Assembly (NCBI GenBank): GCA_035510635.1
Contig: DATKGU010000001.1
Coordinates: 649 to 64,648, forward strand
Direction of reading: 5' to 3'
From: Minisyncoccota bacterium
GTDB lineage: Bacteria > Patescibacteriota > Minisyncoccia > Phycocordibacterales > SBAW01
Length of the DNA: 64,000 nt
A program made the translations under genes and the position numbers. The notes under the pieces are model-generated. The model saw nothing but the letters and a program-made list of their open reading frames with translations, was not told the DNA's origin and did not search any database. Shown here piece after piece: positions 6,819 to 30,437 of this stretch; position 1 is the first letter of the stretch, and the number at the start of each line of letters is the position of its first letter.

Positions 6819-6942
6819 CGTTTCGTCCCTTAGTTAAAGGAGATTCTAGATTTCGACTTGGATGGTTGCAGTTGACTCCTGGGGTACCATTTTGGGAGAC
6901 TATTTACATATTCTAGTTAAAAAGTAGGGTCATATAGATTTG

Positions 6943-6971
6943 CCGCCTAGCATTGAGTCAGGCGGCTTTTT
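6943..6971 (+). terminator. intrinsic terminator (gccgcct/aggcggc stem plus ttttt) after rplE
   Basis: 7-bp GC stem, 11-nt loop, T-run. Not expected inside a contiguous spc operon, so it marks an island boundary. Confidence 0.6.
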
Positions 6972-7162
6972 CCATTCCATAGACAATGAGGAGTGTTAAT
7001 TTTTGTTGTCCCCATCCACACCCCAACTCCACCTCGTATTAAAAAGTGGGGTATTATTACTACGGTAGCTCGCATCTTTGAGAGCTATCACGTTCTTACA
7101 ATTGAATATCAGCGAGTAGCCTAAACCATCGAGCGTTCGGTGGCATGGTGAAAGCGAAAAAT

Positions 7163-7262
7163 GTCCAGTTAGACATAAAAAACCCATCATGGGAATGTCT
7201 AACTGGCCGTACCGGGAAACTGGTACGGGAGGTTTCGGCCTCCACCCGTGGTGGGCTTTTTG
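7163..7262 (+). promoter_or_regulatory. structured leader with four consecutive hairpins, the last a terminator-like stem plus T-run 7 nt before the start codon
   Basis: 12-bp perfect stem ccagttagacat/atgtctaactgg (7165-7206), then ccgtacc/ggtacgg, gagg/cctc, ccacc/ggtgg followed by ctttttgctttc and ATG at 7268. Confidence 0.45.
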
Positions 7263-7267
7263 CTTTC

Positions 7268-10200
7268 ATGAATAAATATTTCTTTCGCAATATTTCAATA
7301 AAAATCGTAGCTTCGTGGGCAACCGTTATTTTCGTGTTCGCAACATTACTCTGCTCTCCATCGGCCGCCTTAGCCATTAGCTATACACCGGGCCAAACAC
7401 TCAACCCAGCGTGTACACCCACTGACCCAACCTGTGTAGTTACTTCAACCACCAATCAGGCGGCAATATTTGTCGCCACTTCTACAACGGCTACCTCCAC
7501 TTTTGCAGGCAATGTTTCAGTCTCTGGCAATGTAGCCATCGGCAGCCTATCCGGTATCCTCAAAGCAGTAACCGGTGTTGTAACAACGGCACTTGTTAAC
7601 CTCTCTGGCGATGTCACTGGAATTCTCGGTATCAGTAATGGTGGCACTGGCACTTCAACTTCGCCAACTTACGGAAAAATATTGGTGGGCAATGGCTCGG
7701 GTGGTTACAACCTCATGGCCACTTCATCGCTCGGAATTGTTACTTCATCTGCAGTATATGCGACAAACTACGGCGTTAAATGCGATGGCGTGACCGATGA
7801 CACGGCAGCAATGCAAGCCGCAGCGAATACGGGTCGGGTTGTTATGTATCCGGCCGGCGTGTGTAAGTTCTCGACATTGGTCATCTCATCCGGTGGCATC
7901 ATCGGCGAAGGTGAGATGGTCCTTCCAGGGAGTTCCCCAAATCTTATTCCTGGCGGTACGGTATTGTTGTCGACTGATACAGGAAGTGGAAATACTATTT
8001 CTTATGTAGCCGACTGGAGTACCGGTAACCCCGGCGTATTTCGTAATTTTTCGCTATTGCCAAGCTCGGGTACGGTCCAAAAGTCCGGCGGCGTAGGTAT
8101 TTATATTAGCGGCAATGTCAGCGGCGACGGATATGTAAACAATTATACAGCAGTCGATAATATATTAATCCGTTACTTTCCCACCTCGATATCACTTCAG
8201 GACTCAGCTGCCTGGACTATCTCAAATAGTAATTTTCTTTTCTATAGAGTCGCTGGCATTGCTGCGGGTAACTTAATTGCCCCCGACCAAGGCGACTCTA
8301 GCATTTATGCGACCACTCTTTTCAATGGCAATGGAGGTGAGTGGGCGACAGAAGGTTCCGGAATCCTCCAGACTTCGAGCGGTGGCCTAAAGATTTCGGA
8401 TACAAAATTTAATGGTGGAAAATATGGCTACCAATGGGCGCAAGCAGGGCAGACCTCCGACACGTTGATTTCAAACAGCAGTTTTGAGAATATCTCAACG
8501 GCAGCTGTCGATTTTCAGAATACAATCAATACATCGGGCTCACCTGTCCGTTTTACCAATATAAAAATCACTGGAAATCAGTTTGCCGGCGACAACCGCG
8601 ATATTTATCTGGAGCCTATTTCACAATATTTGGGCTCATCTTATTGGGACAACATTGTTATATCCGGAAATACTTTCTATCTTGCGACTCTCAGCTCCAT
8701 CGAGCTAGACACGGCTCGAGAGTTTACGATCGTCGGGAATACCATAAATGGTAATTACTCTACACCGGTAGGTATTTTGATTGCATCGTCTGATGATGCT
8801 ACAGGATTTGTAGGAGCAAACAATATTTCCGGTGTCGGCACGGCGGTTGTAAACAATAGTGCCACAGTAACCGTCAGTTCCAGCAACAGTGCCGTTGGGG
8901 CTTTTAATGTTTCTGGTACGGGTGCTGCGTATCAGCTCTTTGGAAATACTGCCTTGTTCGCGAGCACCACAAACTCTTCGCTTGCCGTTGGCGCGCCTGA
9001 AGCTGCTGGCTGGATGACCGCATCTTCGTCTCCCCAATGGCGCTCGATTGCTATCGGCGCTGGTGCACTTGCCACTACTCCAATCAACAGTGCAGCAACC
9101 AAAAACATCGCTGTAGGATACAACGCACTCAATGCCAACACTTCGGGTTTTTGGAATACCGCCGTAGGAGATAGTGCGCTTAACTCCAACACCTCCGGCA
9201 TACTCAATGTTGCGACCGGAATGAATGCACTTAATGCTAATACCACTGGTGGCTATAATGTCGCGACTGGCTTTCAAGCTCTCTACACGAACACCACCGG
9301 TAGTGACAATGCAGCGGTAGGGTATAACGTCCTTAATAATAACCTAACCGCTGCAAATACCGTTGCAATAGGTTTTAGTGCGGCAGTAGGTTCGGGCAGC
9401 TATTCAAACCAAGGTGGTGTTTATATTGGTTACCAGGCAGGCGATCAGGTCCAAACGGGCTCCGACTACAACACCATCATCGGTTATAATGCCGGCTACG
9501 CTCTGACTACTGGCGCGCGCAATATTCTTATTGGTCAGTCCACTATTCCGACTTCTTACAATCAGGTCAAAACTGGCTCAAAGAACATATCAATTGGTAA
9601 TGATGTGGCAGTTGCATCTTCAACCGCATCCAACCAACTCGACATTGGCAACTTCATTTATGGAACAGGCTTGAGCGGCACTGGGGCGAGCGTCTCACCC
9701 GCATACATCGGATTCGGTACCACCACCCCATATGCTTCTCTCGAAGTTTGGGGCTCCACCAACACGGGTTCAACCACAGTCTTCTCGGTCGTGAGCAGCG
9801 CCTCCACTACACTCTTCTCCGTTTCTGCAAACGGATACGCCACCCTTCAAAACTCCCTCTACCAAAGCTCAGACCAACGCCTCAAAACTGACATTACTAC
9901 TCTGGATGCATCATCTTCTCTTGCTGCATTGTTAGCACTTACTCCTGTTTCCTATACCCGCATCGACCAGCCTGAGCTTGGTACTAACTTAGGATTCATT
10001 GCCCAACAGGTGCAACAAATCTTCCCTGAACTTGTCTCTACCAGCTCACCAACAGCTCTTACCCCTGACGGTACACTTACACTCAATTACACAGGCCTTA
10101 TTGCTCCGATTGTGAAAGCGATACAAGCGATTGCAAGTGAGATTGTTTCTATTCAAAATACGATTGCGGGGTTTGCCAATAGTTTTACAACCAAACAACT

Positions 10201-10591
10201 TTGTCTTACCGACAGTTCAGGGACAACTTGTTATACTCGTTCTCAGCTTAATGCAGTAGTTGGAAATGCTGCAACGCCCTCCGTCCAAATCAGCACCCCA
10301 ACCACCCCCGTCATCTCAACCACCACCCCTCCCACCATATCTATCCAAGGCCAAAATCCAGCCACCATACACGTCGGCGACACTTACACCGACTTGGGAG
10401 CTCTTGTCACCGACAATCAAGGCCACCGCCTGGGTTACACCACCTACCTCAATGGCACACTGGTATCAACTCTCACGATTGATACAAGCACTACAACAAC
10501 TGACACCATAGACTATGTAGCAACCGACACGTGGGGCAACACAGCAACCTCCACACGCACCGTGATAATTGCCCCAGTCTCTTCCCAGTAA
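7268..10591 (+). CDS. secreted tailspike/tail-fibre-like surface protein (1107 aa): signal peptide, pectate-lyase-like beta-helix, N-x-A-V/I-G repeat region, peptidase S74 intramolecular chaperone domain, C-terminal Ig-like (DUF5011-like) domain
   Basis: N-terminal hydrophobic signal (MNKYFFRNISIKIVASWATVIFVFATLLCSPSAALA). YGVKCDGVTDDTAAMQAAANTG matches the pectate_lyase_3/tailspike hallmark. Long runs of NTAVGYNALNANTSG-type repeats. SDQRLK...GFIAQQVQQIFPELV matches the S74 chaperone-of-endosialidase signature. C-terminal ~230 aa are near-identical to the 27815-30433 paralog. ATG 7268 preferred over track start 7145. Confidence 0.8.
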   Translation: MNKYFFRNISIKIVASWATVIFVFATLLCSPSAALAISYTPGQTLNPACTPTDPTCVVTSTTNQAAIFVATSTTATSTFAGNVSVSGNVAIGSLSGILKAVTGVVTTALVNLSGDVTGILGISNGGTGTSTSPTYGKILVGNGSGGYNLMATSSLGIVTSSAVYATNYGVKCDGVTDDTAAMQAAANTGRVVMYPAGVCKFSTLVISSGGIIGEGEMVLPGSSPNLIPGGTVLLSTDTGSGNTISYVADWSTGNPGVFRNFSLLPSSGTVQKSGGVGIYISGNVSGDGYVNNYTAVDNILIRYFPTSISLQDSAAWTISNSNFLFYRVAGIAAGNLIAPDQGDSSIYATTLFNGNGGEWATEGSGILQTSSGGLKISDTKFNGGKYGYQWAQAGQTSDTLISNSSFENISTAAVDFQNTINTSGSPVRFTNIKITGNQFAGDNRDIYLEPISQYLGSSYWDNIVISGNTFYLATLSSIELDTAREFTIVGNTINGNYSTPVGILIASSDDATGFVGANNISGVGTAVVNNSATVTVSSSNSAVGAFNVSGTGAAYQLFGNTALFASTTNSSLAVGAPEAAGWMTASSSPQWRSIAIGAGALATTPINSAATKNIAVGYNALNANTSGFWNTAVGDSALNSNTSGILNVATGMNALNANTTGGYNVATGFQALYTNTTGSDNAAVGYNVLNNNLTAANTVAIGFSAAVGSGSYSNQGGVYIGYQAGDQVQTGSDYNTIIGYNAGYALTTGARNILIGQSTIPTSYNQVKTGSKNISIGNDVAVASSTASNQLDIGNFIYGTGLSGTGASVSPAYIGFGTTTPYASLEVWGSTNTGSTTVFSVVSSASTTLFSVSANGYATLQNSLYQSSDQRLKTDITTLDASSSLAALLALTPVSYTRIDQPELGTNLGFIAQQVQQIFPELVSTSSPTALTPDGTLTLNYTGLIAPIVKAIQAIASEIVSIQNTIAGFANSFTTKQLCLTDSSGTTCYTRSQLNAVVGNAATPSVQISTPTTPVISTTTPPTISIQGQNPATIHVGDTYTDLGALVTDNQGHRLGYTTYLNGTLVSTLTIDTSTTTTDTIDYVATDTWGNTATSTRTVIIAPVSSQ

Positions 10592-10614
10592 GTGACTTGA
10601 TATATCAAGTCACT
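10591..10614. repeat. perfect 24-nt palindrome agtgacttgatatatcaagtcact at the gene junction
   Basis: Overlaps the stop codon of the preceding gene. Possible hairpin or operator. Confidence 0.5.
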
Positions 10615-10623
10615 ACAAAATCA

Positions 10624-11418
10624 ATGAAAACTTTTGTATTAAGTAGCATCACCTTTCTTGTACTTCTCTCTAGTGCAAGCATTGCTTTGGCCTCCACCGG
10701 CACCATCGACCCCACCAACCACTACGCTTGGAGCGACAACGGAGGCTGGGTCAACTGGTATGCCACTGGAGGGAATGTACAAGTAACAGACACCGCACTC
10801 ACTGGCTACATCTGGTCTGCCGGCTTTGGCTGGATTAACCTTGCTCCTACCAATGGAGGAGTACTTAACACCGGAGGCTACCTCAGTGGCTATGCCTGGG
10901 GAGCCAGCACCGGTTGGATTAGCTTCCTTGGTGTCACCATCGACCAACAGGGCGTCTTCCATGGACACACCGTGGCACAAAACATCTTTGGCACCATGAC
11001 CTTTGACTGTGATAACTGCAAGGTCACCACTACGTGGAGACAGGGAAGCACAAACACAAACACAGGCGGTGGTGGCACAGTGAGTGGCCCTCTTGCGGTG
11101 GGGTATACCAACCCTTCGACAGGCTCATCACAAGCCACCACCTCAACTAAACCTCTGCCTCCAACCCTCATACCCACCTCCAAACCCTCTACCATTCCAC
11201 AACCCACCTCTAAACCACCCTCTTCATCTAAGAGCCCAACCTACACCACTCAAACACCTCTTGTCCCCGTATTTCCAACGAATAATGTAAAAACAAATAC
11301 CAAAGGCGGCAACGCAACCCCACCTTTCACTCCTGCATCTGTTGCTCCAAGCTGCACGTGGTTAACTTGCTGGTGGCAATCAATAATTGGATTCTTTGCA
11401 CGGTTGTTTGGGAGGTAA
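10624..11418 (+). CDS. secreted repeat protein with Pro/Thr-rich linker and C-terminal hydrophobic anchor (264 aa)
   Basis: Signal peptide MKTFVLSSITFLVLLSSASIALA. Three G-W-containing repeats (GWVNWY / GFGWINL / STGWISFLG), a PT-rich stretch, and C-terminal CTWLTCWWQSIIGFFARLFGR. ATG 10624 preferred over 10531. Confidence 0.6.
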   Translation: MKTFVLSSITFLVLLSSASIALASTGTIDPTNHYAWSDNGGWVNWYATGGNVQVTDTALTGYIWSAGFGWINLAPTNGGVLNTGGYLSGYAWGASTGWISFLGVTIDQQGVFHGHTVAQNIFGTMTFDCDNCKVTTTWRQGSTNTNTGGGGTVSGPLAVGYTNPSTGSSQATTSTKPLPPTLIPTSKPSTIPQPTSKPPSSSKSPTYTTQTPLVPVFPTNNVKTNTKGGNATPPFTPASVAPSCTWLTCWWQSIIGFFARLFGR

Positions 11419-11627
11419 ATATCAAAGGGTATCATCACTGAGGAGGAATTTACAGCAAAGAAAAACAATTACTCGGCATTTAAGTTTGGGTGGTCTACCC
11501 ATATACCATTAAAGACCGACCAGCTTGCCTTGTAGAAAGGTTCTCTAGGCGTCTAGGGACGTTTCTGATGATGGAGAACGGTGGGGTATGTGGTTTCCTT
11601 CAACCCGCAATCTAATTCTTCTTCTGT

Positions 11628-11680
11628 GAGGGGATTTTATATTTTTATGCCACAAAAATAGTGGTGTAGTAAATCCCCTC
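11628..11680. repeat. 10-bp inverted repeat gaggggattt / aaatcccctc (33-nt spacer) in the intergenic region
   Basis: Seen directly in sequence. Nearby tgcaggtttatatgcaggt direct repeat at 11717-11740. Confidence 0.4.
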
Positions 11681-11945
11681 CAAAAATGCTTTTGTTCGAG
11701 CCATTTTTATATGGTCATTTTTCATGTATCTGCAGGTTTATATGCAGGTACCTAGAAGTATTTGCAACATTTTTTTGGACAAGTCAAATTGCTGTGCTAC
11801 TGTCGAGGAGTCTTGAAGAAAAAAGTCGAAAACAAGGTTCCTGAGATTGAGCTTGAGTGTACACGAGCTTTCGATCTCCTGTTTAAACTTTTAATCGGCA
11901 CGGACGAAAACGAACAAAAGCCCTTATAAAGTAAAGATAATTGTT

Positions 11946-12131
11946 ATGGATAAAAACTATAAGCATCCGTGGCTCTGTCGCGGGTGTGGGGCGAAGTTGA
12001 AGTGGCCGCTGGTGGTCAAAAGCATTTTTGGAAACGGTTGGGTTTGTTTTGGGTGCCAAGTCAAGGAGTGCATAAACGGTGATTTTATTCGCGGGCACGA
12101 GAGAGGGAAAAACATCCCTCCCCGAACATGA
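11946..12131 (+). CDS. small Cys-rich zinc-ribbon-like protein (61 aa)
   Basis: CRGCGAKLKW...CFGCQVKEC gives two CxxC pairs. First gene of a 3-gene overlapping (translationally coupled) module. Confidence 0.5.
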   Translation: MDKNYKHPWLCRGCGAKLKWPLVVKSIFGNGWVCFGCQVKECINGDFIRGHERGKNIPPRT

Positions 12132-12394
12132 GCGCTGGGCGCGGTGTGCGTTCCAGCTGGCTTGAACACAAATTGGACGAGTTGATGCACGACATCAAAG
12201 CATACGCGGAGGCCCATTCGGAAGCGTGGTGGATTTATAGCACGGACATCGAGATGCAATACGCCGAAGGCGACTACGTACAGTTGTGGGACGAACTTGA
12301 GTGGATGCGGGGCAATGTCAAAAATCCAGCGTTTCGAAATATGTTGACCGAGGCGCTGGAGTTAATAAAAGCAATAAATATCGAGTATGAGTGA
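12128..12394 (+). CDS. hypothetical acidic protein (88 aa)
   Basis: 4-nt start/stop overlap with both neighbours. No recognisable motif. Confidence 0.45.
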   Translation: MSAGRGVRSSWLEHKLDELMHDIKAYAEAHSEAWWIYSTDIEMQYAEGDYVQLWDELEWMRGNVKNPAFRNMLTEALELIKAINIEYE

Positions 12395-13055
12395 TGACTG
12401 CGGAGTGCCGCCACTCTTTCCGGGTTTTAGGCCGGAGGACTTCACAAAGGCGTTCTTCAAATATCCGAGGGTGCTGGAGCAGTACTGGCACGTCATGACG
12501 AACAGCGAGGCCAAGGTGCTCACGTTCCTGCTCCGCATGCTTCCGGGTTTCCAAAAAACACAGGATGCTGTGAGCCTGAGCCAGTTCATGGGTGGCGTCG
12601 GCTCCCACAACAAGGGTACGGGTATCAGTCGCACACAGGTTCGGCGGGCAATCGAAGGTTTAGAGGAAAAAGGGTTCATAATCCGAACGCGCCAGCCAGG
12701 GCGGTCGACGGTGTACCGTCTTCGCTACACCGAAGGATTGGCGGTCGAAACTGTGCCAGTGAAAGAAGCTCCCTTGGAGATTCAACGCCTTATACGGCTC
12801 TTCATGCCGGTCGCCGAGCATCGCGTAGAGACCTACCTACAGGACAGGACGCAGATTAAGGCAATCGAGCGGCTGGTTGAGTACTACGGCGTTGAAAAAG
12901 TTGAGGCCTACATCAACACTCTGCCGACGATTCATGGAAAGCGCTTTATGCCGGTCATCACGTCGCCGGTAGAGCTTGAACAGAAACTGCCGAAGTTGGC
13001 TGACGCTATAAAGCGGCGACGAGGCGAAGAGGGGAACAGTCAAATGCTGTTCTGA
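12387..13055 (+). CDS. winged-helix DNA-binding protein, phage replication-organiser/regulator-like (222 aa)
   Basis: SEAKVLTFLLRM...GISRTQVRRAIEGLEEKGFIIRTR looks like a wHTH. Lies in the phage-like module upstream of the serine recombinase. Confidence 0.5.
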   Translation: MSDDCGVPPLFPGFRPEDFTKAFFKYPRVLEQYWHVMTNSEAKVLTFLLRMLPGFQKTQDAVSLSQFMGGVGSHNKGTGISRTQVRRAIEGLEEKGFIIRTRQPGRSTVYRLRYTEGLAVETVPVKEAPLEIQRLIRLFMPVAEHRVETYLQDRTQIKAIERLVEYYGVEKVEAYINTLPTIHGKRFMPVITSPVELEQKLPKLADAIKRRRGEEGNSQMLF

Positions 13056-13355
13056 CCATGCCCATGCAGGGCACAGCAGCCGGTGCACTGCTTGGGCACA
13101 CACCGGGTACAAAAGTATGCACGCCTACCGTGTCCATGCCACAAACAGAACAATAGTTAATAGAACAATAGAAATTAACAATACTGGTTGAGCTTTTTCT
13201 GGAAAGGAAAAGCTGGAAAAGGAAAGTCGGGCATCATCAGTTTCAGAATGTCCGCACACTGTCCGACTTTTTCTTCGCCAGCAAATGCGCCTGTTCCGCG
13301 TCCAGTAGTTCCAACAGTTTACAACTGCTAACAGCCAATTATTATCAGCCAAATA

Positions 13356-13506
13356 ATGAATGACATCGAAGCACTGCGAGACTACATCATTGCCGACGAG
13401 ATACATCGTATCCAATCGCTGTCACACGAGGAGTTAGTGCGTGAGCTCGTCGAACTCAGTTCTCGGGAGATTGAAAAAATGACTGACTCCCAACTCTTGA
13501 TTAAGT
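13356..13506 (+). CDS. possible small ORF (50 aa) immediately upstream of the recombinase gene
   Basis: ATG 13356 to TAG 13504 (MNDIEALRDYIIADEIHRIQSLSHEELVRELVELSSREIEKMTDSQLLIK). Below the ORF-track length cut-off. Candidate Xis/RDF-like or regulator, speculative. Confidence 0.25.
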
Positions 13507-13527
13507 AGAACCCCCACAAGACCATAA

Positions 13528-15273
13528 ATGAAATTAGATAACTCACAACCTAAAAAAGAACTTCGAGCGGCGATCTACCTTAGAGTGTCGACCTTAGCCC
13601 AGTCCGAGGAGGATGCTTACGGCCTCGATGTGCAGGAGGAAAGAGCTCGTAAGTTTTGCACCTCGCAGGGGTACCTCCTCGATGAAGCTCACCTCTATAC
13701 CGACAAAATTTCCGGAGGTACACGACCGGAGGAACGTGAGGGATTATCCAAACTACTGGCCGCTGCCGAGAGAGGGGAGTTTGACTGCATGCTGGTCTAC
13801 AAAATTGACCGCGTTGCCAGAAACCTAAAAATTTTCCTTGGCATTGTTGAGCAGCTGCTGGCACTTAAACTTATCTTCCGCTCTGTCACTGAGCCAATCG
13901 ACACCTCAACCCCGATCGGGGAGATGGTGATGCAAATTTTGGCAATGTTTGCTCAATTTGAGAGAGGCATGATTCGAGACCGCACTATGAGCGGTCGAAT
14001 ACAAGCTGCCAAACATGGTTCTTGGGTGGGAAGCGTGCCTCCGTATGGGTACATCCTTAATAAAACCACCCGCAGGTTGGAGATTAATCCAAAGGAGGGG
14101 AAAATCGTGAAGCAAATATTTAAGTGGCTGGTGGATGACAAGTTGGCCGTCCACGAAATTGAGCGACGACTAAATGCAATGCAGGTGCCGGCACCATGGT
14201 CGACTAAAATTAGTACCAAAGAAACACAAAACGTTTGGCGCAAGTTCAGTGTAATAAGAGTCTTGGTCAATGAAGTACACACTGGCACCTTTTACTACCG
14301 CAAGTTCCGCAAACCGTTTAATGGCTTGACCAGCATTACTGACCCCAGCCGACTACGGCCGAGAGAGGACTGGATAGAGCAACATTGCGACCCCATTATC
14401 ACGACCGAGATGTACGAAGCGGCAAAGCGTCAACTTACACACAACCGAGAGTTTGCCCGACGCAACCGCAAGCATGAGTACCTATTCTCCAAAATCATCT
14501 ATTGTAGTGGGTGCAAACACAAAATGTTCGGTGGATTCCAGCCCGCTAGGGAAGAGTGGGGATACCAAGGTGGTCGGTACTACCACGGTGTGTATCGTAA
14601 GGACGATGCGCTAGGCAAGACAGCGCGATGCCAGTGGTGCCCCAACTACTCCGAGGCACGGCTTGAGCCGGTATGGGACTGCCTTAAAGATATATTAAAG
14701 AACCCGAAGAACATGACACGGCCTTTGGAGAAATATATACATAAGGAAAAAGACCCCCTGCCGGTCAAGCAGCGGCTTCAGGATATTGATACAGCCTTGG
14801 ATACCATAAGCAGAAAACGTGACCGTGTGGACGCGCTCTATATAAATGAGCAACTGGATGAGCAAAAGTACAAGGCCTATCAGGTCGAGTTCAAGCAAGA
14901 CGAACAGCGGCTTAGGGATGAGCAAACGCACCTCCGACAGACCTTGTTAAGCAAGCGAGAGGTTGCTGACCGCCAGAAAGCGGTGCAGCGCGCATACGAA
15001 CAAGTCAAAGCTCGGCTTGATGCCGTTACCTACGACGAGAAAGCTAAAATCGTCTCATACTTCGTTGAGCGCATCACTCTGCACGCCAAAGAGAACTATG
15101 CGGAGGTGGTGTTCAGATTCTCCAAAGGCACAGACATAGGTACCGTAGCTACCTTGCAAGGAGACAAAGCCTTCCCGCTGGTGCACAAAATCAACACCAT
15201 CCCCGAGAGGGAGCGGAGAGCCACTCTCATGGCAACGAACCCCGAGATGTTCGTGTCGAAGGTGCTGGTGTAA
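13528..15273 (+). CDS. large serine recombinase (phage integrase/transposase-type, 581 aa)
   Basis: N-terminal resolvase catalytic domain (AAIYLRVSTLAQ..., VYKIDRVARN), recombinase domain, Cys-containing zinc-ribbon region (CSGCKHK...CQWC), coiled-coil C-terminus. Confidence 0.9.
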   Translation: MKLDNSQPKKELRAAIYLRVSTLAQSEEDAYGLDVQEERARKFCTSQGYLLDEAHLYTDKISGGTRPEEREGLSKLLAAAERGEFDCMLVYKIDRVARNLKIFLGIVEQLLALKLIFRSVTEPIDTSTPIGEMVMQILAMFAQFERGMIRDRTMSGRIQAAKHGSWVGSVPPYGYILNKTTRRLEINPKEGKIVKQIFKWLVDDKLAVHEIERRLNAMQVPAPWSTKISTKETQNVWRKFSVIRVLVNEVHTGTFYYRKFRKPFNGLTSITDPSRLRPREDWIEQHCDPIITTEMYEAAKRQLTHNREFARRNRKHEYLFSKIIYCSGCKHKMFGGFQPAREEWGYQGGRYYHGVYRKDDALGKTARCQWCPNYSEARLEPVWDCLKDILKNPKNMTRPLEKYIHKEKDPLPVKQRLQDIDTALDTISRKRDRVDALYINEQLDEQKYKAYQVEFKQDEQRLRDEQTHLRQTLLSKREVADRQKAVQRAYEQVKARLDAVTYDEKAKIVSYFVERITLHAKENYAEVVFRFSKGTDIGTVATLQGDKAFPLVHKINTIPERERRATLMATNPEMFVSKVLV

Positions 15274-15285
15274 AAAAGCTGAATT

Positions 15286-15606
15286 TTACTCCGAGTCTTT
15301 CCTCCGCTGAATAGCACGTAGCACCGTAGCGGCTACAAAATCTTTGCGTGCCTCTCCCAATACGGGCAACGCAGCCAGTACAGACGCATTGTTTGTTGGG
15401 AGTAAGTCCACTTTTCCTTCGTTGTAGTTAGTAAGTTGCGTCAGGAACTCATCGAGCCACGATGGTGTTACGGTGAGCACTTCGTCAAAGTCGATTTGGA
15501 TCGCCTCATCAGGATTAAGTTGCGGACGGATAGCATTAAATGCCTCTAGCCCTGCTGGACGAGAAACAAGTACGGAGCCAAATTTTTTAAGTTGAATGGT
15601 TTGCAT
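15286..15606 (-). CDS. STAS-like (DUF4325-type) anti-sigma-antagonist-fold protein (106 aa)
   Basis: Small alpha/beta protein, IDFDEVLTVTPSWLDEFL similar to the SpoIIAA/RsbV phosphorylation loop. Adjacent to and co-oriented with the GHKL ATPase gene. Confidence 0.6.
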   Translation of the reverse strand: MQTIQLKKFGSVLVSRPAGLEAFNAIRPQLNPDEAIQIDFDEVLTVTPSWLDEFLTQLTNYNEGKVDLLPTNNASVLAALPVLGEARKDFVAATVLRAIQRRKDSE

Positions 15607-15618
15607 ATCTAACGTGTC

Positions 15619-16344
15619 TTAAAATAGTATAACAGCATATGTGCCACGGATATTTCCGTCAGTCATCTTAATGTGCATCAATCCGGGGCCGGTAGGGATG
15701 TTAACGAGGCCGATGCCCGAACGGAACAAGAGTCCAATTTCCTTTGACTCTACAACATTGCGGACCACTTTGAGTCCGTTGCCACGCTTCTCCGGGTTTC
15801 TTCCCGAAACAATTTCCGTAAACGCTACCGTTAGAGCATCGACATCGGTAGTAAGATTTGGTCGCACTTGTTGGAGTGTTGCTTTTACGCCACGTCCGCG
15901 GTCTGCAAGAACTATCACCCGCTTTGCAATGTCATATGCATAAAATACACCTGGCACATCAGGCCAGTTACCAACGTTGTGTGCGAAAGAGTTATCGCCA
16001 ATTTCTGCTGCAACCAGTGTGAGGAGCGATGCTAAGTCTTCGGGCATATGCCCCGTTTTCTGCAATTCTATCCCCATCTTAGCCACTCGACTGGTGAAGC
16101 GATCTGGTCGTTCGCAATAATATTCACTTGGAAGTGCTGGCGGTATGGCGCTTGTTGCCCATGCTAATCCAAGCATCTGAAGGTCGAGAGCAAAACTATT
16201 AAGGTCTCGTAGAGCATAATAGCGGTGCTTTCCTCCACTCCGTTCAGCACGAAGCTTCCCGGATTTCTCCCAGTTGCGTAGGGTTTGAACGGATACATTA
16301 AGTATCTTTGCCGCCTCACCTATGCGTACTTTTCCAGTATTCAC
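15619..16344 (-). CDS. excisionase/MerR-type HTH fused to GHKL (anti-sigma-factor-kinase-like) ATPase (241 aa, GTG start)
   Basis: N-terminal IGEAAKILNVSVQTLRNWEKSGKLRAERSGGKHRY resembles HTH_17/excisionase. Bergerat-fold boxes EIGDNSFAH (ExxxNxxxH), ADRGRGV (DxGxG), RGNGLKVV (GxGL). Confidence 0.75.
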   Translation of the reverse strand: MNTGKVRIGEAAKILNVSVQTLRNWEKSGKLRAERSGGKHRYYALRDLNSFALDLQMLGLAWATSAIPPALPSEYYCERPDRFTSRVAKMGIELQKTGHMPEDLASLLTLVAAEIGDNSFAHNVGNWPDVPGVFYAYDIAKRVIVLADRGRGVKATLQQVRPNLTTDVDALTVAFTEIVSGRNPEKRGNGLKVVRNVVESKEIGLLFRSGIGLVNIPTGPGLMHIKMTDGNIRGTYAVILF

Positions 16345-16362
16345 CCTGTCAGATTAGGGTCA

Positions 16363-16396
16363 AAACCTATAAAAGTCAAGATTTGTTTATAGGTTT
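16363..16396. promoter_or_regulatory. palindromic operator AAACCTATAAA-N12-TTTATAGGTTT, 19 nt upstream of the HTH-GHKL gene
   Basis: Perfect 11-bp inverted repeat. Half-site TAGGTTT recurs in a second palindrome and again at 17821-17831. Confidence 0.6.
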
Positions 16397-16426
16397 ATGT
16401 GTAAAACTTACAAAAACAGCCCTTAT

Positions 16427-16451
16427 TGTAGGTTTAACAGGGAAACCTACA
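16427..16451. promoter_or_regulatory. second operator palindrome TGTAGGTTT-N7-AAACCTACA
   Basis: 9-bp inverted repeat sharing the TAGGTTT half-site. Confidence 0.55.
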
Positions 16452-16625
16452 ACCACTGAAATGGCCTTACTATGGGTTCTAAAATTGAGACTTTGGAGGT
16501 CATAATCTTAAAGAGCCGATTCTGTATGGATATTTGTTGGGTTTTGCTATCCTCCTTTCCTAAAAGGAGGAACACAAAAACTCCCAGGGTGTTTTAGCGG
16601 AACAACTGCCAAGAAGTAAAATAAC

Positions 16626-16659
16626 AAAAAAGCTCGGATTTCAATCCGAGCTTTTTTGT
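16626..16659. terminator. bidirectional intrinsic terminator aaaaaagctcggatt tcaa tccgagctttttt
   Basis: 9-bp stem flanked by A-run and T-run. Confidence 0.65.
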
Positions 16660-16695
16660 GATATCGTCTGTGGCGGAACTGTATAGGAGCACCAC

Positions 16696-16908
16696 ATGAG
16701 CGGATATCGAGGCGTCGAGCTTGATTTTGGCGCATATAATTGGCCTCAAAATCGGGTCGAGTTTGACTTGGTGGCGTCGCAAGGCAGCAGATCGGGTTGC
16801 GCCACGACAACACCCCGCACAACCTTTAAGCCCGCGGCGCATGTCACTCCAAGGTTTCGCAAGCGGGACAAGAAGTCCACCAGCGTCGGTAAGAAGAGAA
16901 AGAAATAA
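16696..16908 (+). CDS. possible small basic protein (70 aa)
   Basis: ATG preceded by AGGAG at -8, unlike core genes here that lack SD. C-terminal KR-rich tail. No family recognised. Confidence 0.3.
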   Translation: MSGYRGVELDFGAYNWPQNRVEFDLVASQGSRSGCATTTPRTTFKPAAHVTPRFRKRDKKSTSVGKKRKK

Positions 16909-17096
16909 GGAGAGAGGCCAAAGCGACCCAGGATTATTCCGGTGTCGCTTTTTTAAATGTTGGACCTGCGAGGTCGAACAATTCTCCATATTTTAGAGGG
17001 CTAAAATAACCTTATTAAACAAGGGTCTTGACGACTTGACAAATCTATTGCTTTAACATATAATAGGTAGGAAAGCTCATTCAAAGGAGAGAGCAG

Positions 17097-17600
17097 ATGT
17101 TTCTAAGCTGGAAGTTCAATGAGGAAAAAGAACCTCGTGGGTGGGTTGAAAGGTTCACCAACGGCACTGGTCCTGACACTAAAAAAGAAATACAGCGGAG
17201 ACGACACCTACTTGAAAACGAACGTCCACCGTATCGTGTATACACAGTTGAATGGATGGATACTGATGCAACCATCTGGACTATCGAAAAGTGGTATGTG
17301 AAGGAAGTTACCCTCGCATACATTCTGAAGAAAAATGGTGAGCCTATCACTGGTGGTGGCACCATCCACTTGCCCCGCTTTGTGTATAAATATCCAGATG
17401 GAAAAACGGGTGAGGTGATAATGGAGACATACGCACTTATCCCGTCTTGGTTAGAGATAGAGCCCTTTAAAGGTCAAACCATGATCTGGGGTTTGCGTAC
17501 TGATGGCACTCGCCGCGATGCTGGAAATATATGTGAAAATTTCCTTTGCCAAGAGGTGGCTAAGGACGACAACCTTCACCCTGTTGTGAGATTGGGCTAG
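17097..17600 (+). CDS. hypothetical protein (167 aa)
   Basis: Strong SD (aaggagag) 8 nt upstream. No recognisable motifs. Last gene of the island. Confidence 0.5.
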   Translation: MFLSWKFNEEKEPRGWVERFTNGTGPDTKKEIQRRRHLLENERPPYRVYTVEWMDTDATIWTIEKWYVKEVTLAYILKKNGEPITGGGTIHLPRFVYKYPDGKTGEVIMETYALIPSWLEIEPFKGQTMIWGLRTDGTRRDAGNICENFLCQEVAKDDNLHPVVRLG

Positions 17601-17742
17601 TAGAACACTTGACTGAACTGTAAAGTCTAAATGTAATACAGATCTTTTTCTCTCTTGTCATAACGCCGGAGATTCCGGTATCGGAAATAAAGCCCACCGC
17701 AAGGTAGGGCTTTCGTATTTATGGGGAAGAAGATTATATAGT

Positions 17743-17800
17743 TTGACTTATGGGAGCTAATCGCTTATATTGCTCGTAGCCCTCAAGGGCTCCTTTTTTC
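17743..17800 (+). promoter_or_regulatory. promoter TTGACT-17-TATATT followed by hairpin agccc/gggct plus T-run, upstream of rpsZ
   Basis: Hexamers 17743-17748 and 17766-17771, hairpin 17777-17791 with ccttttttc. An orphan copy of the TTTATAGGTTT half-site lies at 17821-17831. Confidence 0.45.
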
Positions 17801-17891
17801 TAGACGGTGCCGCTTAGTCCTCCTTTATAGGTTTGGGCGAGGCATACCTCCAGAATCATAACCCCGGGGTTACGGGGTGCATCACTCACAT

Positions 17892-26140: not shown

Positions 26141-26299
26141 AATAAGCCCTTGTCTTATCCACAGCAAGACTTGCTAATTCCAGTATTAGGTGTATAATTA
26201 GATTTAGCTATATAGTAATTATAGCCCTATGGAATTAGAGTTTTTTCAATTCTAGTCCAATAGAATTAGAAAAGTGTTAATTCCAGTACATAATTTTAC

Positions 26300-27445: not shown

Positions 27446-27446
27446 T

Positions 27447-27485
27447 AGAGTCTCGTTCCGCTTCGAAAACCCCGACTCAGCATAA
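27447..27485 (+). repeat. right direct repeat: duplicated, synonymously diverged 3' end of the LOG-like gene
   Basis: agagtctcgttccgcttcgaaaaccccgactcagcataa encodes RVSFRFENPDSA-stop versus RASFRFENPDNA-stop at 26103-26140. Confidence 0.7.
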
Positions 27486-27543
27486 AAAGTTATCCCCACA
27501 CCCCGCGCTTCCACCTCATATATAATGGTACAATGAGTGCATC

Positions 27544-27630
27544 ATGAAATCGCTCCTTGCTGGCCTTACACTTACGGCTTTAGGCTTGGTGCATATGGTG
27601 GCCGGGGGGGGGTCAGCTTGTAGCGTCTGA
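27544..27630 (+). CDS. 28-codon signal-peptide-like ORF containing a G9 homopolymer, out of frame with the downstream surface-protein gene
   Basis: MKSLLAGLTLTALGLVHMVAGGGSACSV-stop. G-run at 27604-27612. Removing one G fuses it in frame to the ORF continuing into 27815-30433. Confidence 0.6.
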   Translation: MKSLLAGLTLTALGLVHMVAGGGSACSV

Positions 27631-30433: not shown

Positions 30434-30437
30434 AATA

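What the first reader, a model, noticed from the sequence alone, without database searches (positions are those of the whole stretch)
7268..10591. Two paralogous secreted proteins with a phage-tailspike build (pectate-lyase beta-helix, N-x-A-V-G repeats, S74 chaperone, Ig-like domain)
Both 7268-10591 and 27815-30433 end with a near-identical ~230-aa block containing the S-D-x-R-L-K plus GFIAQ motif of the autoproteolytic intramolecular chaperone of phage endosialidases and tail fibres (peptidase S74). Unusually, a DUF5011-like Ig domain follows it. The first copy also has the GxKxDGVTDDTAA depolymerase hallmark. One copy has a signal peptide and the other a switchable one. The Ig-like terminal motif also appears in the secreted protein 32142-33284. 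These are candidates for cell-surface or host-attachment fibres, or a tailocin-like receptor-binding protein, in an organism that may be an episymbiont.
Basis: partly seen in the sequence, partly recalled or inferred. Interest (0 to 1): 0.7.

Follow-up and report, generated by a model that had tools for sequence, protein, structure and literature searches.

The report
Phage-like surface fibres, CPR bacterium
Two genes of an ultra-small (CPR/Paceibacterota) bacterium encode secreted fibres assembled from phage tail-fibre parts, probably cell-surface attachment or sugar-cutting fibres; one has a conserved neighbouring partner gene, and the other appears switched off by a run of nine G's.

Summary

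The "near-identical" tail is overstated: 65% identity overall, 82% in the Ig domain. Protein 32142-33284 carries a different Ig family (Big_7).

The source is a Candidatus Paceibacterota MAG. I found no phage or tailocin structural genes, and the cassette is absent from the phage, viral-contig and plasmid collections searched.

The best reading is secreted, self-processing trimeric surface fibres analogous to Bdellovibrio MAT fibres.

New findings:
- A conserved secreted partner gene (10624-11418) lies next to every fibre that carries ProtA's N-terminal cap.
- The N- and C-terminal modules and the partner recur at about 60% identity in Bradyrhizobium and Xanthobacteraceae.
- Both genes lie in strain-variable islands.
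- A LOOT RNA precedes ProtA.
- G/C tracts recur in the signal-peptide region of ProtB-type genes.

I rate it a new variant of a known kind, interest about 0.6.

The parts
7005..7039 (+). Upstream element shared by the two paralogues (GTTrTCCCCA..CACACCCC-N5-7-CCACCTC-rTAT), followed by -10-like TATTAA/TATTAT. Candidate common promoter or operator.
   Evidence: The pattern CACACCCC-N(3-9)-CCACCTC occurs only at 7017-7035 and 27497-27517 in the window, with 0 expected in 100 shuffles. Alignment. Absent from the 70 related loci held then, L001-L070.
7118..7243 (+). LOOT RNA (Rfam RF03000), an orphan structured RNA, lying between the shared upstream element and the ProtA start codon.
   Evidence: cmscan gives 76.7 bits against a gathering score of 46.4, E 1e-12, full-length match 1-121. 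Not found in 13 other loci scanned with Rfam, nor by a motif pattern in the 70 loci held then, L001-L070.
7241..7265 (+). Terminator-like hairpin (TCCACC-CGT-GGTGGG) plus T-run, ending just before the ProtA ATG. Either the 3' end of LOOT or an attenuator.
   Evidence: Consensus scan. Read directly from the sequence.
7268..10591 (+). ProtA (1107 aa; NCBI HUD02407.1): full fibre gene.
   Evidence: ORF list. Exact sequence present in the protein collection with the same start.
7268..7375 (+). ProtA Sec signal peptide (residues 1-36, ...SAALA|ISY).
   Evidence: Hydrophobic core, Kyte-Doolittle 2.2 over 15 aa, followed by an A-x-A site.
7376..7762 (+). ProtA N-terminal module (residues 37-165): Cys-pair cap (YTPGQTLNPACTPTDPTC) plus a shaft unit ending ...GILGISNGGTGTS...GNGSGGYNL. 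Shared by many fibres whose middle domains differ.
   Evidence: Homologues with Kelch, GH18, GDSL, FGE-sulfatase, hyaluronidase or LVIVD middles. 64% identity to the Bradyrhizobium LTSP885 protein. Iterated profile hits in 9 loci. The AF2 monomer model is unreliable here, pLDDT below 55.
7763..8887 (+). ProtA right-handed parallel beta-helix (residues 166-540) starting with YGVKCDGVTDDTAA. Polysaccharide-binding or polysaccharide-modifying domain.
9053..9667 (+). ProtA 17-residue NxAVG-type repeats (shaft).
   Evidence: Spacing analysis. PHROG tail-spike, tail-fibre and virion-structural families hit this region. 27-30% identity to SPO1-like and Twort-like phage tail spikes.
9668..9868 (+). 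ProtA fibre tip preceding the cleavage site, with the 'capping-loop' motif IGFGTTTPYASL (residues 814-825).
   Evidence: The A2 profile aligns this stretch to the Bdellovibrio MAT fibres Bd2133 (8ond), 8oml, 8ojn, 8ol4 and 8on4. Motif position.
9869..10192 (+). ProtA S74 intramolecular chaperone / auto-processing domain. Predicted scissile and catalytic Ser868, with Lys873.
   Evidence: Pfam PF13884, 55.5 bits against a cut-off of 22. S and D invariant, R, L and K conserved in at least 90% of 89 homologues. Aligned to SDERLK, SDRRIK and ADLRAK of solved S74 proteins. Top Foldseek hit is the MyRF ICA domain 7dc3.
10193..10330 (+). ProtA conserved Cys-hairpin (LC...TC; C979, C988) and Thr/Pro linker.
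   Evidence: C979 is invariant and C988 is conserved in at least 90% of sequences. Modelled as a beta-hairpin plus helix.
10331..10573 (+). ProtA C-terminal Ig-like domain (PF16403).
   Evidence: Pfam. AF2 pLDDT above 90. Foldseek hits to Big_3, SusE-like, SraP and Rib domains.
10624..11418 (+). Partner gene (264 aa; NCBI locus tag VMR46_00085, 'hypothetical protein'). It has a signal peptide, a conserved ~130-aa Trp-rich domain (3x Y.W....GW.N, FDCxxC), a Pro/Thr/Ser linker and a hydrophobic C-terminal tail (PSCTWLTCWWQSIIGFFARLF). Candidate envelope anchor or dock for the fibre.
   Evidence: Adjacent to and co-oriented with the fibre gene in the window and in 9 related loci, including two Bradyrhizobium isolates. 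The family has at least 853 members, none with a Pfam domain on the conserved part. Some members end in PG_binding_1 instead of the hydrophobic tail. No hit in PDB, phages, viral contigs or plasmids.
27487..27521 (+). Second copy of the shared upstream element, followed directly by TATAAT and, about 20 nt later, by the ATG at 27544.
27544..27630 (+). Short ORF encoding the ProtB signal peptide (MKSLLAGLTLTALGLVHMVAGGG...). It is out of frame with ProtB as assembled.
   Evidence: Translation of all frames and of tract-length variants.
27604..27612 (+). G9 homopolymer. G8 or G11 fuses the signal peptide to ProtB. Candidate slipped-strand phase-variation switch, in the OFF state here.
   Evidence: A JGI metagenome contig matching 100% over 2658 bp also reads G9. 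Equivalent G/C 9-10 tracts lie at the same place in the ProtB-type genes of L016 (in frame) and L024 (out of frame).
27815..30433 (+). ProtB as annotated (872 aa; HUD02429.1). The frame is open from 27584. Layout: 17-aa repeats 28466-29494, tip 29495-29671, S74 domain 29672-29995 (Ser620), Cys-hairpin and linker 29996-30178, Ig domain 30179-30418.
6823..17890 (.). 11-kb strain-variable insertion between rplE (L5) and rpsN (S14). It holds LOOT, ProtA, the partner, a RepO-like HTH protein (12387-13055), a large serine recombinase (13528-15273), and MerR-HTH plus DUF4325 genes.
   Evidence: Relatives at 84-89% nucleotide identity have 1.6-4 kb of unrelated cargo at this site. Pfam.
26141..30975 (.). 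4.8-kb insertion between the SLOG/LDcluster4 gene and rplT (L20). It holds a SoFic-type Fic gene (26300-27445) and ProtB.
   Evidence: In L003, L004 and L005 the SLOG gene abuts rplT. SoFic hit at E 1e-106.

Best explanation
ProtA and ProtB are Sec-exported, self-trimerising, self-processing surface fibres of a Paceibacterota (CPR) cell. They are built from the same parts as phage tail fibres and tailspikes, and are organised like the MAT (mosaic adhesive trimer) fibres of Bdellovibrio.

Proposed mechanism:
1. The chains are exported by Sec (signal peptide shown).
2. The C-terminal S74 domain nucleates folding of the upstream repeat shaft and tip into a trimer. This is inferred from the family.
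3. Ser868 (ProtA) or Ser620 (ProtB), with the Lys five residues on, cuts the chain. That releases a 240-253-aa fragment (chaperone + Cys-hairpin + Ig domain) and exposes the fibre tip. The motif and fold are shown; the cleavage is inferred.
4. The mature ProtA fibre carries a right-handed beta-helix that binds or cuts a polysaccharide. The fold is shown; the activity is inferred.
5. ProtA is held at the producer's envelope through its conserved N-terminal cap, most likely by the adjacent partner protein. The partner's conserved domain sits on a Pro/Thr-rich stalk that ends in a hydrophobic tail or, in homologues, a peptidoglycan-binding domain. The gene linkage is shown; docking is inferred.
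6. ProtB belongs to a second N-terminal type without a partner. Its export is set by the length of a G tract inside the signal-peptide coding region and is OFF in this assembly. The frame logic is shown; switching is inferred.

Both genes are accessory cargo in variable islands, next to mobile-element and defence genes. The module set moves between CPR and soil Alphaproteobacteria.
For: DOMAINS
- S74 plus PF16403 in both proteins.
- S and D invariant, R, L and K conserved in at least 90% of 89 homologues.
- The C-block profile hits a phage tail fibre (8jov), MyRF ICA (7dc3), the S16 long tail fibre (6f45), the GA-1 neck appendage (3gud) and five Bdellovibrio MAT fibre structures.
- The C-terminal model's best PDB match is the MyRF ICA domain, followed by Ig domains.
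- PHROG tail-fibre and tail-spike families hit both proteins.

SECRETION
- Signal peptides.

MOSAIC BUILD
- The same N-terminal module is joined to Kelch, GH18, GDSL, FGE-sulfatase, hyaluronidase, LVIVD or PF12708 middle domains.
- The S74-to-Ig block is kept as one unit in 341 clusters at E<1e-30.

PARTNER
- It is adjacent and co-oriented in the window and 9 loci. All 7 loci whose fibre has the N-terminal cap have it. None of the complete fibres I examined without the cap (ProtB, L014, L016, L024) has one, and the profile search found the partner in no other locus.
- At least 9 further fibre/partner pairs appear to share a metagenome contig, judged by matching contig lengths.
- Some partner homologues end in PG_binding_1.

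NOT PHAGE-BORNE
-.

ACCESSORY STATUS
-.

PRECEDENT
- Bdellovibrio MAT fibres have a signal peptide, a conserved ~130-aa N-domain, variable tips and, in 13 of 21 members, an S74 domain with SDxxxK. Self-cleavage was shown at S782 and abolished by S782A. The fibres are surface-localised (PMC10769870).
Against: - Nothing here shows trimerisation, cleavage, surface location or any ligand. Only monomer models could be built.
- The N-terminal module and the region around the cleavage site are modelled with low confidence.
- Homology of the N-terminal module to the Bdellovibrio MAT N-domain could not be tested. ProtB lacks the module.
- The partner has no recognisable fold or family, so its anchor role rests on linkage and on its C-terminal variants.
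- The same cassette in diderm Bradyrhizobium and Xanthobacteraceae shows the system is not specific to an episymbiotic lifestyle. It also leaves open how a Sec-exported fibre would cross an outer membrane.
- Many middle domains in the family are enzymes, so the main role could be glycan processing rather than adhesion.
- ProtB is frameshifted in two assemblies and may simply be inactive.
Confidence: 0.6

Rival explanations
1. The proteins are surface-displayed or released polysaccharide-processing enzymes rather than adhesins. On this view the S74-assisted trimeric scaffold presents a catalytic middle domain (in ProtA, the beta-helix). The enzyme would digest capsule, exopolysaccharide or cell wall, either of a host to gain access or nutrients, or of the producer's own matrix.
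For: The closest structural matches to ProtA's beta-helix are mostly enzymes: AlgE4 epimerase, GH87, GH110, RbmB lyase and phage depolymerases. Middle domains elsewhere in the family are mostly catalytic folds: GDSL/SGNH esterase, GH18, hyaluronidase and FGE-sulfatase-type. Phage tailspikes combine binding and cleavage.
Confidence: 0.2
2. The genes are receptor-binding proteins of a prophage, tailocin or contractile injection system, or remnants of one. They would be assembled onto a particle rather than onto the cell.
For: All building blocks are phage-like. NCBI names both proteins 'tail fiber domain-containing protein'. ProtA lies in an island with a large serine recombinase and a phage RepO-like protein. 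The Bradyrhizobium LTSP885 homologue is followed by a serine recombinase.
Against: About 40 scanned ORFs in the window show no capsid, terminase, portal, tube, sheath or baseplate gene. ProtA, the partner and their homologues have Sec signal peptides, which virion proteins assembled in the cytoplasm lack. The N-terminal module, the post-S74 Ig extension and the partner have no match in 50,697 phage genomes. The S74+Ig block and the partner were not found in 2.9 million viral contigs. In relatives both sites hold unrelated non-phage cargo.
Confidence: 0.07
3. This rival concerns the 'switchable' part only. ProtB would be a decaying pseudogene, or the G9 tract an assembly error, and not a phase-variable gene.
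For: The gene is out of frame in this MAG and in a 100% identical JGI contig. No length heterogeneity was observed. Homopolymers are error-prone in some sequencing chemistries.
Against: The 2.6-kb ProtB frame downstream is fully open. A further 234 nt of open frame reaches back through the tract to a perfect signal peptide. It is the only such tract in 64 kb. The ProtB-type genes of two other lineages carry 9-10-nt G/C tracts at the same place, one in frame (L016) and one out of frame (L024, Saccharibacteria). A neighbouring secreted DGR-target gene in L014 also has one. Only 9 such tracts occur in 877 kb of loci.
Confidence: 0.3

Closest known systems
Bdellovibrio bacteriovorus MAT (mosaic adhesive trimer) fibres, S74 subgroup, e.g. 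Bd3182 (Caulton et al. 2024, PMC10769870)
   Same: Both are chromosomally encoded bacterial proteins of about 1000 aa with a signal peptide. Both have a conserved ~130-aa module right after the signal peptide that is shared among family members, and swappable downstream domains. Both have a beta-helical fibre with the xGxGTxxPxxxL capping-loop motif and a C-terminal S74 domain with SDxxxK. The profile of the window's C-block hits five solved MAT tips. The proposed role, recognition of another bacterium's surface, is also the same.
   Different: Here the S74 domain is not terminal: a conserved Cys-hairpin and a PF16403 Ig domain follow it. ProtA carries a large tailspike-type right-handed beta-helix and 17-residue repeats. 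A dedicated partner gene is linked to the fibres that have the N-terminal cap, whereas the surface element that binds the MAT N-domain is unidentified. The host is a monoderm-like CPR bacterium, and the same cassette also occurs in Alphaproteobacteria. Homology of the two N-terminal domains was not tested.
Phage tail fibres and tailspikes with a C-terminal intramolecular chaperone: K1F/NF endosialidase, T5 pb1 L-shaped fibre, phi29/GA-1 (pre)neck appendage gp12, SPO1-like tail spikes
   Different: The window proteins have a Sec signal peptide and no virion genes nearby. Their N-terminal module, their Ig extension and the partner are absent from the phage collections searched. In phages the S74 domain is the extreme C-terminus.
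Eukaryotic myelin regulatory factor (MyRF) ICA domain
   Same: It is the best structural match to the modelled S74 domain (7dc3). It is also an S74/ICA domain that is not C-terminal, so cleavage separates two functional halves.
   Different: MyRF is a membrane-tethered transcription factor, and what follows its ICA domain is a transmembrane helix. Here an Ig-like domain follows and both halves are extracellular.
Phase-variable surface proteins controlled by homopolymer tracts in the signal-peptide coding region (contingency loci of Neisseria, Campylobacter, Helicobacter; from general knowledge)
   Same: A G9 tract sits between the start codon and the mature protein, and its length sets the reading frame. 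Related genes are found in both ON and OFF frames.
   Different: No population heterogeneity was observed here. I found no report of this mechanism for CPR bacteria in the papers searched.

Membership tests
Peptidase S74 / intramolecular chaperone auto-processing (ICA, CIMCD) domain | Match to Pfam PF13884 above the curated cut-off | tested here: met
   ProtA 55.5 bits and ProtB 57.2 bits, against a cut-off of 22.
Peptidase S74 / intramolecular chaperone auto-processing (ICA, CIMCD) domain | Catalytic Ser and Lys in the S-D-x-x-x-K motif at the domain's start | tested here: met
   SDQRLK at S868/K873 (ProtA) and S620/K625 (ProtB). S and D are invariant, and R, L and K are conserved in at least 90% of 89 homologues. 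The motif aligns with SDERLK (8jov), SDRRIK (6f45) and ADLRAK (MyRF crystal sequence).
Peptidase S74 / intramolecular chaperone auto-processing (ICA, CIMCD) domain | Fold of a solved ICA domain | tested here: met
   Top Foldseek PDB hit is the MyRF ICA domain 7dc3: E 2.6e-4, TM 0.57 on the target, 127 columns. The model's confidence in this part is moderate, pLDDT 66-84, and below 50 at the cleavage site.
Peptidase S74 / intramolecular chaperone auto-processing (ICA, CIMCD) domain | Domain forms the extreme C-terminus and is the only thing released on cleavage (as in phage proteins and Bdellovibrio S74 MATs) | tested here: not met
   About 130 further residues follow (Cys-hairpin, linker, PF16403 Ig). 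They are conserved as one unit with S74 across hundreds of clusters.
Peptidase S74 / intramolecular chaperone auto-processing (ICA, CIMCD) domain | Trimer-dependent autoproteolysis | not testable with these tools
   Needs expression of wild type against S868A, or at least a multimer model. Only monomer prediction was available.
Bdellovibrio-type MAT fibre (S74 subgroup) | Signal peptide | tested here: met
   Met for ProtA. Met for ProtB only after a -1 or +2 change in the G9 tract.
Bdellovibrio-type MAT fibre (S74 subgroup) | Conserved ~130-aa N-terminal domain after the signal peptide, homologous to that of the 21 Bdellovibrio MATs | tested here: inconclusive
   An analogous conserved module exists in ProtA, shared with many proteins of different middles. 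No Bdellovibrio N-domain sequence or structure was available to compare. The model of this part is unreliable. ProtB lacks the module.
Bdellovibrio-type MAT fibre (S74 subgroup) | Beta-helical fibre tip with capping-loop motif, related in sequence to solved MAT tips | tested here: met
   The A2 profile hits 8ond (Bd2133, E 1.8e-8), 8oml, 8ojn, 8ol4 and 8on4 through the GNVGIGTTTPxxxLEV stretch. The motif lies at ProtA 814-825 and ProtB 576-587.
Bdellovibrio-type MAT fibre (S74 subgroup) | Located on the cell surface and used to recognise another bacterium | not testable with these tools
   Requires microscopy or proteomics on a culture.
Virion-borne phage tailspike / depolymerase | Right-handed parallel beta-helix | tested here: met
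Virion-borne phage tailspike / depolymerase | Encoded among virion structural genes of a phage or prophage, and assembled in the cytoplasm (no signal peptide) | tested here: not met
   No structural phage genes in the window. Signal peptide present. No full-length relative in the phage collection, and none found in viral contigs.
Tailocin / extracellular contractile injection system fibre | Neighbouring sheath, tube and baseplate genes | tested here: not met
   None in the 64-kb window. The eight family-locus proteins I scanned with Pfam, all fibres or the DGR target, showed only fibre-type domains; neighbouring genes in those loci were not scanned.
Trimeric autotransporter adhesin (one homologue carries that name in JGI) | C-terminal YadA-type beta-barrel anchor and Hep_Hag/YadA head repeats | tested here: not met
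   No such Pfam hits at E<=0.1. The C-terminus is S74 + Ig. The repeats have a 17-residue period and no PDB relative by sequence.
Slipped-strand phase-variable (contingency) gene | Homopolymer in the 5' coding region whose length sets the frame, recurring in related genes in both ON and OFF states | tested here: met
   G9 at 27604-27612. L016 G9 in frame. L024 C10 out of frame. L014 G10 in frame in a neighbouring secreted gene.
Slipped-strand phase-variable (contingency) gene | Tract-length heterogeneity within or between populations | tested here: inconclusive
   The only other contig found is 100% identical over 2658 bp and also reads G9. It may well be the same sample. Reads were not available.

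The most novel reading that the evidence does not exclude
The fibre gene plus its linked partner gene form a previously undescribed, horizontally mobile two-gene 'fibre and dock' cassette. It would be the host-recognition apparatus of Paceibacteria-type CPR episymbionts. Specificity would be changed by swapping the middle domain. Expression would be toggled by homopolymer tracts and, in at least one locus, the cassette lies next to a diversity-generating retroelement. Its repeated exchange with Bradyrhizobium/Xanthobacteraceae would mark these soil Alphaproteobacteria as the physical partners (hosts) of these CPR lineages. The extra Cys-hairpin and Ig domain after S74 would be a wall-tethering assembly aid that is discarded on cleavage.
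Probability: 0.2. Interest if true: 0.85.

Novelty: new variant of a known kind. Interest (0 to 1): 0.6.

Why it matters
How CPR/Patescibacteria recognise and attach to their hosts is largely unknown beyond type IV pili in Saccharibacteria. For most soil and groundwater lineages the hosts themselves are unknown.

A large family of phage-derived, self-processing fibres with exchangeable binding or enzymatic middle domains, a dedicated linked partner, and signs of phase variation is a concrete and testable candidate for that recognition system. There are hundreds of 50%-identity clusters of the S74+Ig block and at least 853 partner proteins.

The sharing of all three conserved modules at about 60% identity with cultured Bradyrhizobium has two uses. 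It offers a tractable organism in which the cassette could be studied genetically. It also gives a possible clue to who exchanges genes, and perhaps physical contact, with these CPR.

It also extends the Bdellovibrio MAT concept to other phyla and suggests a candidate for the MAT fibres' still-unknown anchoring element.

Tried and rejected
- Sequence search of ProtA and of the ProtB repeat region against PDB found only spurious hits: a reaction-centre M chain and a designed Kelch protein.
- NCBIfam gave nothing for ProtA, ProtB, the partner or ProtC.
- An exact-sequence contig look-up of ProtA failed, so I used a cluster look-up instead.
- I looked for att-like direct repeats at the edges of the 11-kb island and found none convincing.
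- I tested whether a serine recombinase is a constant neighbour of the fibre. tblastn with the window's recombinase found it only in L008, and Pfam found another in L006. It is an occasional neighbour, not a rule.
- I tested whether long DNA repeats between the two paralogues could drive recombination or inversion. There is only 81% identity over 266 bp, so I rejected this.
- I tested whether the window's reverse transcriptase is a DGR acting on the fibres. It is a DRT2 defence RT, and even a sensitive search found no TR/VR repeat. Rejected for this window.
- I tested whether LOOT RNA is a general leader of fibre genes. It is absent from 13 loci by Rfam and from the 70 loci held at that point (L001-L070) by pattern. 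Rejected.
- I tested whether the shared upstream element is family-wide. It is specific to this genome.
- I searched the Bdellovibrio paper's supplement for N-domain sequences or lists of homologues and found nothing usable.
- The AlphaFold-database fold library was unavailable.
- Literature searches found no paper linking S74 or endosialidase chaperones, or DUF5011, with CPR/Patescibacteria.

Full report
WHAT IS THERE

The window comes from a 67.7-kb contig of a MAG that NCBI names Candidatus Paceibacterota bacterium (CPR/Patescibacteria). ProtA is HUD02407.1 and ProtB is HUD02429.1. NCBI calls both 'tail fiber domain-containing protein'.

ProtA (7268-10591, 1107 aa) and ProtB (27815-30433, 872 aa) are real ORFs. 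They are clear paralogues: 49% identity over about 570 residues, E 5e-129. Pfam finds Peptidase_S74 and then PF16403 (Bact_surface_Ig-like, formerly DUF5011) in both. PHROGs assigns the repeat and S74 regions to tail-spike, tail-fibre and virion-structural families.

Three details are overstated:
- The shared tail is 65% identical, or 82% in the Ig domain. It is not near-identical.
- The beta-helix belongs to ProtA only.
- The protein at 32142-33284 carries MBG_2 plus Big_7, not PF16403.

ANATOMY OF ProtA

| Residues | Feature | Evidence |
|---|---|---|
| 1-36 | Sec signal peptide | |
| 37-165 | Conserved N-terminal module: a Cys-pair cap, then a shaft unit ending in ...NGGTG... | |
| ~596-800 | 17-residue NxAVG repeats | |
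| 801-867 | Tip with the capping-loop motif IGFGTTTPYASL | |
| 868-975 | S74 domain | |
| 976-1021 | Conserved Cys-hairpin and linker | |
| 1022-1102 | Ig domain | pLDDT above 90 |

Pfam itself does not call PF12708 on ProtA, but its homologues carry that domain.

In an alignment of 89 homologues, the Ser and Asp of the motif are invariant, and Arg, Leu and Lys are conserved in at least 90% of sequences. A profile of this block finds a phage tail fibre (8jov), MyRF ICA (7dc3), the S16 long tail fibre (6f45) and the GA-1 neck appendage (3gud). Through the capping-loop stretch it also finds five Bdellovibrio MAT fibre structures. The modelled S74 domain's best PDB match is MyRF ICA.

ProtB AND THE G TRACT

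ProtB as annotated has no signal peptide. Its frame is nevertheless open for 234 nt upstream, back through a G9 run (27604-27612). An ATG at 27544 in the +1 frame encodes a good signal peptide that ends in that run. G8 or G11 would give a 962-aa secreted protein. It is the only G/C run of 8 or more in the window.

A JGI metagenome contig that is 100% identical over 2658 bp also reads G9, so no length variation was observed.

However, ProtB's N-terminal region is weakly similar to that of the fibres in L016 (an uncultured CPR-like bin) and L024 (Saccharibacteria). Each of those carries a 9-10-nt G or C run at the same position, in frame in L016 and out of frame in L024. A neighbouring secreted gene in L014 has a G10 run in its signal peptide. 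Only nine such runs exist in 877 kb of fetched loci. I read this as probable slipped-strand phase variation, inferred rather than shown.

CONTEXT

ProtA sits in an 11-kb insertion (6823-17890) that splits the ribosomal-protein operon between L5 and S14. Relatives with 84-89% nucleotide identity have 1.6-4 kb of unrelated cargo there. The insertion also holds a phage RepO-like HTH protein, a large serine recombinase, and MerR-HTH and DUF4325 genes.

ProtB, together with a SoFic-type Fic gene, occupies a 4.8-kb insertion between a SLOG gene and rplT. In the relatives those two genes abut. Both fibres are therefore accessory genes in variable islands.

About 40 ORFs of the window were scanned with Pfam and none is a phage structural gene.

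A CONSERVED PARTNER

The 264-aa secreted protein immediately downstream of ProtA (10624-11418) has homologues next to the fibre gene, on the same strand, in nine of the 65 related genomic loci. All seven loci whose fibre has ProtA's N-terminal cap have the partner. Two further loci have it beside a fibre truncated by the contig end. None of the complete fibres I examined without the cap (ProtB, L014, L016, L024) has one, and the profile search found the partner in no other locus.

At least nine more fibre/partner pairs appear to share a metagenome contig, judged by matching contig lengths.

The partner consists of:
- a signal peptide;
- a conserved Trp-rich domain of about 130 aa with an FDCxxC motif;
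- a Pro/Thr/Ser-rich spacer, sometimes with an extra domain;
- a short hydrophobic C-terminal tail, PSCxWLxCWWxxIxxFFxxLF.

In some homologues the tail is replaced by a PG_binding_1 domain. The family has at least 853 members, all 'hypothetical', with no Pfam, PHROG, NCBIfam or PDB relative. The simplest reading is an envelope-anchored dock for the fibre's N-terminal cap. This is inference from linkage and architecture.

DISTRIBUTION

The S74-to-Ig block is a fixed unit in 341 representative clusters at E<1e-30, in proteins of about 200 to 2600 aa.

A scan of one genome per species found it in two groups:
- CPR lineages: Kaiserbacteria, Adlerbacteria, Paceibacterota, Minisyncoccia, Saccharibacteria.
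- Alphaproteobacteria of the Hyphomicrobiales, unexpectedly. These include two cultured isolates (Bradyrhizobium sp. LTSP885 and B. manausense BR3351) and Mb-sized MAG contigs.

The LTSP885 protein shares ProtA's N-terminal module (64% identity) and C-terminal block (62% identity), but has a GDSL/SGNH esterase in the middle. The partner gene lies just upstream at about 60% identity. These Bradyrhizobium loci have about 56% G+C, which is lower than I recall for the genus, and sit near tRNA genes. In LTSP885 a serine recombinase lies next to the fibre gene.

In a neighbour-joining tree of the C-block, CPR and alphaproteobacterial sequences interleave in several clades. ProtA and ProtB are each other's closest relatives, and next closest to the Bradyrhizobium group. 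The tree has no support values, and the scan is biased towards close relatives of the query.

Known phage genomes contain only distant matches to the beta-helix and to the repeat+S74 part. They contain nothing for the N-terminal module, the Ig extension or the partner. Viral contigs and plasmids gave nothing.

INTERPRETATION

The features add up to a secreted, S74-assisted trimeric fibre that is a cellular structure and not part of a virion.

The closest characterised system is the MAT fibre family of Bdellovibrio. Its members have a signal peptide, a conserved ~130-aa N-domain, swappable distal domains and, in 13 of 21 members, a C-terminal S74 domain with SDxxxK whose self-cleavage was demonstrated. 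The fibres are on the predator's surface and contribute to prey recognition (PMC10769870).

The window's proteins work like this family and are related to it in the tip and S74 region. They differ in four respects:
- the post-S74 Cys-hairpin and Ig extension;
- the tailspike-type beta-helix and 17-residue repeats;
- the linked partner gene;
- the host phyla.

Membership in the MAT family in the strict sense is left open, because the N-terminal domains could not be compared.

Whether the main job is adhesion or polysaccharide processing is unresolved. The family's middle domains include enzyme folds and binding folds. The cassette's presence in free-living diderm Alphaproteobacteria argues against a function exclusive to episymbiosis.

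OTHER OBSERVATIONS

- A full-length LOOT RNA (Rfam RF03000, an orphan family) lies at 7118-7243. A terminator-like hairpin follows it, a few nt before the ProtA start codon.
- Upstream of LOOT is a ~35-nt element that occurs only once more in the window, directly upstream of ProtB's true start, with 0 expected by chance. The two paralogues may therefore share a promoter or operator, with LOOT plus the hairpin inserted in ProtA's leader.
- The window's reverse transcriptase (39284-40651) is a DRT2 defence gene, not a DGR.
- In the related locus L014, a genuine DGR lies immediately upstream of an S74+Ig fibre gene. 15 of its 16 TR/VR mismatches are at template adenines. It diversifies a neighbouring secreted protein that has a G10 run in its signal peptide.

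VERDICT

The tailocin alternative is not supported.

The domain-level annotation already exists at NCBI, and the general concept is known from Bdellovibrio. I found no published description of the CPR/Alphaproteobacteria variant, with its partner gene, Ig extension, cross-phylum mobility and candidate phase variation.

I rate it a new variant of a known kind, interest about 0.6.

Noticed in passing
window 10624-11418 (+); homologues at L006 2949-4028, L007 4001-5062, L008 9587-10411, L012 9112-10014, L028 4989-6059, L033 4730-5635, L010 1609-2487, L060 1823-2899, L036 5525-7309: An uncharacterised secreted protein family of at least 853 members with no Pfam domain. It is always adjacent to and co-oriented with fibres that carry ProtA's N-terminal cap. 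Its C-terminus is either a Cys/Trp-rich hydrophobic tail or a PG_binding_1 domain.
   Followed up: yes
L006 (Bradyrhizobium sp. LTSP885) 2949-8897; L007 (B. manausense BR3351) 4001-8954; about 30 further alphaproteobacterial loci: The N-terminal module, the S74+Ig block and the partner of this CPR fibre recur at about 60% identity in cultured Bradyrhizobium and in Xanthobacteraceae/Hyphomicrobiales MAGs. A GDSL esterase replaces the beta-helix there. CPR and alphaproteobacterial sequences interleave in a neighbour-joining tree, which points to repeated inter-phylum transfer.
   Followed up: partly
window 7118-7243 (+), hairpin 7241-7265: A full-length LOOT RNA (Rfam RF03000, 76.7 bits), an orphan RNA family that, as far as I recall, is known only from metagenomes. 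Here it lies in a Paceibacterota MAG, directly upstream of ProtA, and is followed by a terminator-like hairpin. It is not associated with fibre genes in the other loci checked.
   Followed up: partly
window 7005-7039 and 27487-27521 (+): A ~35-nt element (…CCCCA..CACACCCC…CCACCTC.TAT) occurs exactly twice in 64 kb, upstream of each paralogue. It may be a common promoter or operator, or a relic of the duplication.
   Followed up: partly
window 6823-17890: The L5-S14 junction of the ribosomal-protein operon is a hotspot for variable cargo in this lineage. This genome has 11 kb there, including a large serine recombinase (13528-15273), a RepO-like protein (12387-13055), and MerR-HTH (15619-16344) plus DUF4325 (15286-15606). 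Relatives have 1.6-4 kb of other genes (DUF7768; or His_Phos/APH/methyltransferase/HicAB).
   Followed up: partly
window 39284-40651 (+), next to tmRNA 40671-41045 (-): A reverse transcriptase that matches the DRT2 defence family (PADLOC E 4e-130). No TR/VR repeat was found, so it is not a DGR. Its expected upstream non-coding RNA (region ~38550-39280) was not examined.
   Followed up: partly
window 26300-27445 (+): A Fic/DOC protein matching the SoFic defence family (E 1e-106). It shares the 4.8-kb insertion with ProtB.
   Followed up: no
L014 2377-9068: A genuine diversity-generating retroelement. The VR (5131-5315) lies at the 3' end of a 980-aa secreted Fib_succ_major protein whose signal peptide contains a G10 run. 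The TR is at 5856-6040, and 15 of 16 mismatches fall at TR adenines. The RT follows and runs in the same open frame into an S74+Ig fibre gene.
   Followed up: partly
L016 936-944 and 979-987; L024 5075-5084; L008 3885-3892; L048 12126-12137: G/C homopolymers of 8-12 nt sit inside or just upstream of the signal-peptide coding regions of fibre-family or other secreted genes in several CPR and alphaproteobacterial loci. This suggests widespread contingency switching of surface proteins.
   Followed up: partly
   Followed up: no
window 23950-24005: A 56-nt near-palindrome (86% self-complementary) just upstream of the beta-CASP/RNase J-like gene at 24007-25374.
   Followed up: no
window 52786-61041: An efflux cluster: HlyD-like, AcrB-type RND transporter (1033 aa), a second HlyD-like gene, and an FtsX permease with an ABC ATPase. 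From general knowledge RND pumps are typical of diderm bacteria, so an AcrB-family gene in a CPR genome is noteworthy.
   Followed up: no
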